Assembly (NCBI RefSeq): GCF_006345805.1
Contig: NW_021836217.1
Coordinates: forward strand, 1 to 25,201
Direction of reading: 5' to 3'
From: Octopus sinensis
Taxonomy: Eukaryota
Length of the DNA stretch: 25,201 bases
The notes beneath the pieces are model-generated. The model saw only the letters and a list, made by a program, of their open reading frames with translations. It was not told the origin of the DNA and searched no databases. A program made the position numbers and the translations under genes. Of the stretch, positions 2,845 to 4,940 are shown piece after piece. How positions within the stretch are numbered: the stretch's first letter is position 1; every line of letters starts with the position of its first letter.

Positions 2845-3153
2845 GTTAGTTAGTTAGTTAGTTAATTTGGCTCAAAAGCAAATAGCAAGGCCATGTAGGG
2901 GGACATGGAGTTAAGTACAGGGTGGTGTTCATGTAAAGAGTTCAGGCCACTTGAGGTCCAGGGAGGCTTTGAACAAAGCGGTCGTCGGCATCTTTACCAT
3001 CTCGTCTGGCAGCTTGTTCCACGGATCCGCAACCCGGACGGAGAAAGCTCCTCTCCTTCGATTGAGATGAAATCGTCGCAGGTAGAGCTTTTCGGAATGA
3101 CCCCGCAGCCGACGCTCTGGAGCAGGAGTGAAGAACAGCTCTTTCGAGAGGTT
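2845..3153 (-). mobile_element. 5'-truncated CR1-group LINE: ORF2 C-terminus, 3' UTR and (TAAC)n tail
   Basis: Minus frame 3153..2929 reads NLSKELFFTPAPERRLRGHSEKLYLRRFHLNRRRGAFSVRVADPWNKLPDEMVKMPTTALFKASLDLKWPELFT*. This carries the LRGH..KL / FS.RV...WN.LP / FK..LD pattern of CR1-type ORF2 ends. GTTA repeats at 2845-2864 are the tail. Confidence 0.88.
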
Positions 3154-3190
3154 TCACTTCGATATTTCCTTCTCCCAGATCTGGGTTAAC

Positions 3191-3766
3191 AGGCGAAGGC
3201 ATGGCAGTGTGGTAAGAACCTTGCTTCGCAATGATAGGAAGAGCCGACATTGAAGGATCAAAAAGCGACGTCGCTGCGAACGCTTGGCCGCCACAAGCCA
3301 GTTATCCATGTGGTAACTTTTCTGACACCTCTCGGCGGAGGCATAGCTCGCCGCTGTTCTGAAAAGATCACGGTGCCAGGTTCAACATCGCTACGAGGCA
3401 CCTTGGGGAAGTGTCTTCTACTATGGCTTCGGTCCGATCAAAGCCTTGTAAGTGGATTTGGTAGATGGAGAGTGAAAGACGCCCGCCATATATATATATA
3501 TATATTATATATCTATATACAGCTTTGTGAAGAGTTTTACAGATTTAATTAAAGTACATATGTATGTATGCATGCATGCATGTATGAATGTGTCGTTGTG
3601 TCAGTATTTGCCCCACCCCCCACCGCCACTACCACCACCACCACCACGTCCACTGATTGACAATTGGTGTTGGAATGTTTACATGCCCGCAACCTAGCGC
3701 TTCGGCATAAGAAAGCGACAAAATAAGTACCAGGAATGAAACCAAAAAATATACAGGGGTCGATTC
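3191..3766 (+). mobile_element. SINE family B carrying a 28S rRNA insertion in its head
   Basis: GGCATGGCAGTGTGGTAAGAACCTTGCTTC [insert] CACGGTGCCAGGTTCAAC...GGCACCTTGGGGAAGTGTCTTCTACTAT...GTGGATTTGGTAGA, then an internal microsatellite and the 3' part ending AATAAGTACC...GGGGTCGATTC. Confidence 0.8.
3222..3369 (-). rRNA. Dispersed 28S (LSU) rRNA fragment from domain V, peptidyl-transferase region; non-functional
   Basis: Reverse complement reads GAGGTGTCAGAAAAGTTACCACATGGATAACTGGCTTGTGGCGGCCAAGCGTTCGCAGCGACGTCGCTTTTTGATCCTTCAATGTCGGCTCTTCCTATCATTGCGAAGCA, near-identical to the conserved eukaryotic 28S sequence over 3222-3331. Extension to 3369 is less certain. Confidence 0.92.
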
Positions 3767-3776
3767 AGTAGGCTAG

Positions 3777-4940
3777 AAGTTCACCGTCTCCAATCAACCA
3801 CAGAGAAAGTTCACCGTCATCAATCAACCACAGAGAAAGTTCACCGTCATCAATCAACCGCAGAGAAAGCTCACCGTCATTAATCAACCGCAGAGAACGT
3901 TCACCGTCATCAATCAACCGCAGAGAAAATTCCCCGTCATCAATCAACCACAGAGAAAGTTCACCGTCTCCAATCAACCACAGAGAAAGTTCACCGTCAT
4001 CAATCAACCGCAGAGAAAGCTCACCGTCATTAATCAACCGCAGAGAACGTTCACCGTCATCAATCAACCGCAGAGAAAATTCCCCGTCATCAATCAACCA
4101 CAGAGAAAGTTTACCGTTATCAATCAACCGCAGAGAAAATTCATCGTCATCAATCAACCACAGAGAAAGTTCACCGTCATCAATCAACCGCAGAGAAAGT
4201 TCACCATCATTAATCAACCGCAGAGAACGTTCACCGTCATCAATCAACCGCAGAGAAAGTTCACCGTCATCAATCAACCGCAGAGAAAGTTCACCGTCAT
4301 CAATCAACCGCAGAGAAAGTTCACCGTCATTAATCAACCGCAGAGAAAGTTCACCGTCATCAATCAACCACAGAGAAAGTTCACCGTCATCAATCAATCA
4401 ACCACAGAGAAAGTTCACCGTCATCAATCAATCAACCGCAGAGAAAGTTCACCGTCATCAATCAACCGCAGAGAAAGTTCACCGTCATTAATCAACCGCA
4501 GAGAAAGTTCACCGTCATCAATCAACCACAGAGAAAGTTCACTGTCATCAATCAACCGCAGAGAAAGTTCATCGTCATCAATCAGCCGCAGTGAAAATTT
4601 CACCGTCATCAATCAACCGTAATGAATGTTCACCGTCATCAATCAACCGCAGAGAAAGTTCCCCGTCATCAATCAACCGTAATGAATGTTCACCGTCATC
4701 AATCAACCGCAGAGAAAGTTTACCGTCATCAATCAACCACAGAGAAAGTTCACCGTCATCAATCAGCCGCAGTGAAAATTTCACCGTCATCAATCAACCG
4801 TAATGAATGTTCACCGTCATCAATCAACCGCAGAGAAAGTTCACCGTCATCAATCAACCGCAGAGAAAGTTCACCGTCATCAATCAACCGCAGAGAAAGT
4901 TCACCGTCATCAATCAACCGCAGAGAAAGTTCACCGTCAT
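3777..4940. repeat. 30-bp minisatellite, about 38 copies (TCACCGTCATCAATCAACCGCAGAGAAAGT)
   Basis: Direct head-to-tail units with point variants, two +4 (CAAT) units and two +1 units; no spacers. Confidence 0.98.

What the first reader, a model, noticed from the sequence alone, without database searches (positions are those of the whole stretch)
3191..3490. Antisense 28S rRNA fragment placed between the A and B boxes of a tRNA-derived SINE
Seen: a family B head runs to ...CTTGCTTC, switches to 110-150 bp of reverse-complement 28S sequence that itself begins TGCTTC (6-bp microhomology), then returns to the SINE just before the B box (GGTTCAAC). The piece CGGCGGAG-GCATAG-CTCGCCG (3333-3353) folds into a hairpin and may be a lineage-specific rRNA expansion. 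Known: this 28S segment lies in domain V, and Pol III type-2 promoters tolerate variable A-B spacing. Inference: microhomology-mediated capture of rRNA cDNA or rDNA. If amplified, this would be a chimeric tRNA/anti-28S SINE whose transcript is complementary to rRNA.
Basis: partly seen in the sequence, partly recalled or inferred. Interest (0 to 1): 0.75.

Follow-up and report, generated by a model that had tools for sequence, protein, structure and literature searches.

The report
One-off 28S retrocopy inside dead SINE
A 148-base piece of the animal's own ribosomal RNA gene sits, in one copy only, inside a much older broken SINE, likely pasted there by a reverse transcriptase; it is not a new mobile element, but dozens of similar scattered pieces stop just short of a recently described octopus-specific cut in that RNA, so the genome may hold a fossil record of the cut.

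Summary
In detail: 148 bp of antisense 28S (3222-3369, helices H88-H91) splits a tRNA-SINE between its A and B boxes. It is not a SINE subfamily. Both junctions occur once in the 2.72-Gb assembly. The SINE halves are 18% from consensus, the insert 3.4% from rDNA, so it landed in an already old copy. It carries an older rDNA allele, which argues against a library chimera. There is no target-site duplication; 7 nt of SINE are lost, and the 6-nt microhomology lies at the rRNA 3' end, in the H91 loop. Most likely a LINE reverse transcriptase primed on uncut 28S RNA; DNA-templated break repair is the rival. No reads confirmed the junctions. The better lead lies beside the finding: 27 of 58 dispersed 28S pieces end within 10 nt, 17-26 nt upstream of that break. 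The scan has noted 28S-in-SINE nesting before (a fish genome, and other pieces of this genome).

The parts
3191..3227 (+). Head of the host tRNA-derived SINE; A-box-like motif at 3202-3212
   Evidence: 7 of 37 bases differ from the family consensus; aligned with four other heads
3222..3227 (.). 6-nt microhomology shared by SINE head and the 3' end of the rRNA piece (last 3 stem bases and first 3 loop bases of H91)
3222..3369 (-). 28S rRNA fragment, H88 to the H91 loop, 148 bp, older rDNA allele (lacks a 3-nt stretch in H88)
   Evidence: Rfam RF02543 E 3.7e-17; 5 substitutions in 148 aligned bases plus the 3-nt gap against rDNA copy L003
3318..3321 (+). Run of four T on the SINE-sense strand; possible weak Pol III terminator inside the insert (inferred)
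   Evidence: sequence; terminator rule from general knowledge
3333..3353 (-). H88 apical hairpin; the published octopus rRNA break maps between 3342 and 3341; one base of the break motif is changed in this copy
   Evidence: PMC13321053 passages
3369..3487 (+). SINE body with B-box-like motif at 3379-3386; A-to-B spacing 166 nt instead of 32
   Evidence: 21 of 119 bases differ from consensus; best of 28 compared copies 101 of 119
3488..3775 (+). Internal microsatellite and decayed 3' module of the same composite SINE
   Evidence: aligns with the 3' module of L096 and L107; 75-79% partial hits
2845..3159 (-). Young, 5'-truncated LINE 3' end with (CTAA)n tail; a separate, later insertion 31 bp upstream of the SINE
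   Evidence: 98-100% to the 39 other places listed, 40 of 415 candidates scored; a longer copy, L024, carries RVT_1, E 1.3e-17

Best explanation
A single, old, neutral passenger: a 148-nt piece of the animal's own 28S rRNA was likely reverse-transcribed into an already decayed SINE copy. Shown: one copy, antisense orientation, 6-nt match at the rRNA 3' end inside the H91 loop, 7-nt loss of target, no duplication, older rDNA allele, insert younger than host. Inferred steps: (1) the + strand of the SINE was nicked or broken after TGCTTC; (2) this 3' end paired with the complementary H91 bases and primed a LINE reverse transcriptase; (3) copying ran 148 nt, through the H88 break position, so the template was likely uncut precursor 28S; (4) end-joining on about 1 nt of homology closed the gap and lost 7 nt. 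The locus has not amplified and is predicted to be inert.
For: Single-copy junctions; flanks 2580-2840 and 3160-3190 also single. Age: 28 of 156 vs 5 of 148 differences, Fisher p 3.2e-5. Allele: of 44 28S loci examined, 27 carry the 3-nt stretch (22 of them at most 2.1% diverged), 11 including the window lack it (all 3.4-13.6% diverged), 6 not scored. Antisense orientation is what priming from the + strand gives. The class behaves like RNA copies: 27 of 58 internal 3' ends fall in 10 nt while only 1 of 48 other copies starts there; 5 of 17 new downstream copies start within about 5 nt of each other. Two tailless copies ending at the same loop have 19-22 and 10-nt duplications and also span the break (L047, L048). 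Loop end plus 2-18 nt target complementarity are the marks of tailless retrocopies (PMC5322556, passages); short target truncation is a recognised outcome of LINE insertion (PMC4245944, passages).
Against: No target-site duplication and no tail, so nothing at this locus alone proves an RNA template. The insert crosses the position where mature octopus 28S is reported cut. The H91 loop is not a demonstrated hotspot: 4 other copies end at it in the query-biased set but only 2 of 22 in an unbiased set, about 0.8 expected (by hand P about 0.2). About 21 long copies in the genome run through this region and some continue beyond the 28S end, so rDNA also moves as DNA here. No read or contig spanned either junction.
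Confidence: 0.72

Rival explanations
1. DNA-templated patch: a double-strand break in the SINE was repaired by microhomology-mediated end joining that copied or captured a piece of rDNA.
For: Target loss without duplication, microhomology at both ends; the insert spans the H88 break position; long DNA-type rDNA copies are scattered over many chromosomes; most hotspot copies tested show no duplication of 10-11 nt or more.
Against: Homology is long only at the rRNA 3' end and sits in a loop; dispersed pieces show strong one-sided end clustering that random DNA capture does not predict; TSD-bearing copies also cross the break.
Confidence: 0.2
2. Assembly or library chimera on a small unplaced contig.
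For: The window is a whole 25.2-kb unplaced contig; none of 24 listed runs held half of the stretch's words; contigs of 4 runs did not cover the 3' junction.
Against: The insert carries the older allele plus 5 substitutions; its H88-side variant occurs at no other of the 12 older-allele sites; head and body are collinear and equally aged (19% and 18%). None of the 4 runs held this SINE copy either (longest listed piece 53 nt), so they say nothing.
Confidence: 0.04
3. A chimeric tRNA/anti-28S SINE that is or was transcribed by Pol III and mobile.
For: A-box-like and B-box-like motifs survive; 28S-derived mobile copies exist in mammals (SINE28, PMC4994717).
Against: 1 copy of each junction; host diverged long before the insert; spacing stretched to 166 nt; T4 run before the tail; 3' module decayed and interrupted; antisense orientation in mid-element does not fit a single-pass template switch.
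Confidence: 0.04

Closest known systems
Tailless retropseudogenes (Noll et al. 2015, PMC5322556; passages and section 19 read)
   Same: No tail; 3' end in an RNA loop; target complementary to the last bases of the RNA; 5'-truncated 28S examples are reported (ten in human).
   Different: Their set was defined by flanking duplications and an L1-type target in therians and a lizard; this copy has a 7-nt target loss, no such motif, and lies in an invertebrate.
SINE28 (Longo et al. 2015, PMC4994717; abstract and first part of section 9 read)
   Same: Short 28S-derived copies, one shown embedded in an otherwise intact older element (MER5B).
   Different: SINE28 comes from the 3' end of 28S, with A-rich tail and duplication; this piece is internal, tailless and has none.
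[quoted passage not shown]
   Same: Short 28S segments (50-482 nt) made into DNA by LINE machinery; a LINE end lies nearby on the same strand as the 28S piece.
   Different: There both parts arrive in one event; here 62 bp of other DNA separate them and the LINE is at most about 1-2% diverged, so it came later.
Octopus H88 rRNA break (Mitra et al., bioRxiv 2026, PMC13321053; abstract and passages read, supplements not seen)
   Different: The preprint describes the RNA; its main text has no hit for pseudogene, retro or germ. The link to dispersed genomic copies is this report's inference.

Membership tests
Tailless retropseudogene | No oligo(A) or repeat tail at the RNA 3' end | tested here: met
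   28S abuts the SINE head directly
Tailless retropseudogene | 3' end in a loop or single-stranded region | tested here: met
   Ends at the third base of the H91 hexaloop; the true joint may lie anywhere in the 6 shared bases, 3 of which are stem
Tailless retropseudogene | Target complementary to the last 2-18 nt of the RNA | tested here: met
   6 nt exact; chance about 0.001 by hand with equal base frequencies
Tailless retropseudogene | Flanking target-site duplication | tested here: not met
   No shared flank word; 7 nt of consensus lost. So: works like one, not filed as a strict member
Tailless retropseudogene | L1-type target motif TT/WAAAAWW | tested here: not met
   Not present at the junction by inspection
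Tailless retropseudogene | Made by a relaxed LINE reverse transcriptase | not testable with these tools
   LINEs with RVT_1 are young in this genome but the enzyme used is unknown
SINE subfamily (chimeric) | Several dispersed copies of the same composite | tested here: not met
   1 hit for each junction in G000
SINE subfamily (chimeric) | Working internal Pol III promoter and full-length transcript | tested here: inconclusive
   Boxes recognisable but imperfect, spacing 166 nt, T4 run inside; no RNA reads
SINE28 | Derived from the 3'-terminal 28S, with A-rich tail and duplication | tested here: not met
   Ends about 680 nt before the 28S 3' end (L003 1651 vs 2335); no tail, no duplication
28S/LINE chimeric insertion | 28S joined directly to the LINE 5' end in one event | tested here: not met
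   62 bp apart; LINE 98-100% to its copies, insert 3.4% diverged

The most novel reading that the evidence does not exclude
The scattered 28S retrocopies of this octopus genome are a germ-line fossil record of the octopus-specific H88 rRNA break: the freed 3' end of the cut 5' fragment, trimmed back about 20 nt to the base of H88, is the favourite priming substrate of LINE reverse transcriptase (27 of 58 ends in 10 nt), in both old-allele and new-allele copies. The copies would then show that the cut occurs in germ cells, and let the cut be dated and traced across cephalopod genomes without RNA. The window's insert is a minority copy made from uncut precursor.
Probability: 0.45. Interest if true: 0.6.

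Novelty: new member of a known kind. Interest (0 to 1): 0.33.

Why it matters
The locus itself matters little: it is one more rRNA piece nested in a common repeat, and several other 28S pieces in this genome also sit in or against SINEs. It is useful as a dated marker (older rDNA allele, potential presence/absence character). The value lies in the class it belongs to: if the pile-up of 3' ends near H88 reflects the newly reported octopus ribosome break, genome assemblies alone could tell when the break arose, whether germ cells make it, and whether cirrate octopuses or squids ever had it.

Tried and rejected
Junction support from public runs: 24 runs listed, none with half of the words; shares of 0.30-0.37 are about what the LINE part alone gives. 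Contigs of 4 runs laid on 3332-3487 covered only generic SINE pieces, no depth at 3332-3385 and no spanning record; this is no evidence either way. The 5' junction was not tested with reads. An allelic or paralogous empty site: none found; L076 and L077 share B-box-side variants but are only 76-77% identical, i.e. other old copies. H91 loop as a hotspot: looked strong in the biased set, not significant in the unbiased one (2 of 22). Run-off of reverse transcriptase at the H88 break: only 1 of 17 newly fetched downstream copies (L147) starts within 3 nt of it; starts cluster 17-18 and 33-37 nt further down instead, so this prediction of the novel case was not met. Co-insertion with the neighbouring LINE: rejected on age and spacing. 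Template switch from SINE RNA to rRNA: rejected on orientation. The window's own LINE piece has no Pfam hit. A batch Rfam scan of 19 loci failed internally. Scripting ended, so later counts were read by hand; model ends overshoot by a few bases and three near-identical C17 copies were counted as three. Paper searches for dispersed 28S copies with hotspots in invertebrates (0 papers with all six terms), cephalopod rDNA pseudogenes and cDNA capture with target deletion (0) found nothing on this case; the library lacks most subscription journals, and supplements of the H88 preprint were not seen.

Full report
Setting. The window is a whole unplaced contig, G000:C12688, of a 2.72-Gb animal assembly with 13,516 contigs. 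The genome's rDNA carries in H88 the motif TATG/CGTC, which a 2026 preprint reports as conserved in and specific to incirrate octopuses (PMC13321053, passages); I therefore infer an incirrate octopus.

1. Observation. The stretch 3222-3369 matches eukaryotic LSU rRNA on the minus strand (E 3.7e-17) and the genome's own rDNA at 95%. Against a consensus of 26 fetched copies of the host SINE, the head 3191-3227 and the body 3369-3487 align without gaps, and 7 consensus bases are missing between them. TGCTTC is shared at the left joint, one base at the right. There is no duplication and no tail. The A-to-B spacing grows from 32 to 166 nt. The host is a composite SINE that continues past the microsatellite to about 3775.

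2. Copy number. A 31-letter pattern over the left joint with 2 mismatches, and a gapped pattern over the right joint, each hit only the window. Both flanks are single-copy. A pattern on the body's private B-box region hit two other places, which are unrelated old copies. No look-alike stretch is in the scan's index. It is a one-off.

3. Order of events. The SINE halves differ from consensus at 7 of 37 and 21 of 119 bases; the insert differs from rDNA copy L003 at 5 of 148 (Fisher p 3.2e-5). The consensus leans to younger copies, but even against L076 and L077, which share the copy's B-box-side variants, identity is 76-77%, about 12% per lineage. The 28S piece therefore entered an old SINE. The LINE end at 2845-3159 is 98-100% identical to the other copies listed and came last.

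4. Real or artefact. The insert lacks a 3-nt stretch in H88. Of 44 28S loci examined, 27 have the stretch (22 at most 2.1% diverged), 11 including the window lack it (3.4-13.6% diverged) and 6 could not be scored; five copies with the stretch are 3-6% diverged, so both alleles coexisted for a time. Three of four later copies also lack it. Of 12 sites matching the older allele, only the window has its two private changes. A chimera made from today's rRNA or rDNA would not look like this. Direct confirmation is missing: no listed run holds the locus, contigs of four runs did not cover the right joint or this SINE copy, and the left joint was not tested with reads.

5. Mechanism. Read as RNA, the piece ends at the third base of the H91 hexaloop, and the 6-nt match lies at this 3' end. 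A + strand DNA end reading TGCTTC pairs with exactly these bases and, extended by reverse transcriptase, writes antisense 28S into the + strand. This geometry is that of tailless retropseudogenes, whose ends map to loops and whose targets complement the last 2-18 nt (PMC5322556). The 7-nt loss is a short target truncation, a recognised result of LINE insertion (PMC4245944). A template switch from SINE RNA to rRNA would give sense orientation (inference). The insert crosses the reported H88 break (between 3342 and 3341) by 28 nt, so an RNA template must have been uncut; L047 and L048, with 19-22 and 10-nt duplications, cross it too. DNA-templated repair also explains microhomology and loss and cannot be excluded at this locus.

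6. The class. To test RNA against DNA I sampled 28S copies by patterns outside the junctions. A pattern upstream of the insert found 81 sites; with a profile of 361 positions, 23 run through and 58 end inside. Thirty-one end at model 65-88; read from the alignment, 27 of 58 end at model 66-75, against about 2 expected if ends were even. The break is at model 92/93. The mirror is absent: of 48 other sites found by a pattern at model 78-102, one starts at the hotspot (starts after model 78 are not sampled). Site counts fall from 81 upstream to 49 across and 46 downstream. Both alleles end there (L104; L098, L109). Most hotspot copies tested show no duplication of 10-11 nt or more; L125 may have one. 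Against my reading: the H91 loop is not significantly enriched in the unbiased set (2 of 22), and 5' starts do not pile up at the break (1 of 17 new downstream copies). Five of those 17 start at model 125-129, next to guanosines that are 2'-O-methylated in yeast 25S (recalled, not from a call), which would fit reverse transcriptase stalling.

7. Nesting in SINEs is common here. L096, L107, L116, L109 and L141 also join 28S pieces to SINE sequence, in either orientation, L107 with target loss. The SINE family is very abundant (5338 candidates), so landing in one needs no special cause.

8. Function. None is indicated. The boxes are imperfect, a T4 run lies inside the insert on the SINE strand, and the 3' module is decayed. 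Transcription was not tested.

9. Known and new. Closest are tailless retrocopies, SINE28 (one shown inside MER5B; PMC4994717) and 28S/LINE-1 chimeras (PMC13174262); dispersed rDNA-derived DNA is known in human (PMC5381670, passages). The locus works like a tailless retrocopy but fails the duplication test. Earlier notes of this scan describe the same nesting elsewhere; they are unchecked notes, not support. What I did not find in the searches made is a link between dispersed 28S copies and the octopus H88 break. That link rests on one genome, hand counts and an offset of about 20 nt that needs trimming or internal priming to explain.

Verdict. Observation confirmed; chimeric SINE family not supported; ordinary one-off insertion, with a worthwhile side lead. 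Interest 0.33.

Noticed in passing
81 sites; L079-L126 and earlier loci: 27 of 58 dispersed 28S pieces end within 10 nt at the 5' arm of H88, 17-26 nt upstream of the published octopus rRNA break; almost none start there.
   Followed up: partly
L132, L134, L138, L141, L146: Five of 17 downstream 28S pieces start within about 5 nt of each other (model 125-129), possibly a reverse-transcriptase stop at modified bases; L133 and L143 both start near model 110.
   Followed up: partly
L003 1513-1515 and copies: A 3-nt gain in H88 of the rDNA, absent from the more diverged dispersed copies: a recent change about 15 nt from the break site, usable to date copies.
   Followed up: partly
L047 843-1174; L048 984-1208: Tailless 28S copies ending at the H91 tip with clear 19-22 nt and 10-nt duplications: textbook tailless retrocopies in an invertebrate.
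   Followed up: partly
L096 979-1075; L107 980-1090; L109; L116; L141: Further 28S pieces joined to SINE sequence; in L096 the piece bridges the 3' module of one SINE and the head of the next.
   Followed up: partly
L094 near 975: The 28S piece is followed by a short inverted copy of its own preceding bases (fold-back at the junction).
   Followed up: no
L002-L012, L014-L016, L018-L020, L050, L054, L056, L062: About 20 long, near-identical 28S/rDNA stretches (1-3 kb seen) are spread over many chromosomes, several ending at the same reference positions; real orphons or assembly placement not examined.
   Followed up: no
window 2845-3159: Very young LINE family (98-100% identical copies on many chromosomes) with a (CTAA)n tail; CR1/L2-like by a recalled C-terminal motif, RT confirmed in L024.
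   Followed up: partly
window 3777-4500: Tandem array of a 30-bp unit that begins where the host SINE's 3' module breaks off.
   Followed up: no
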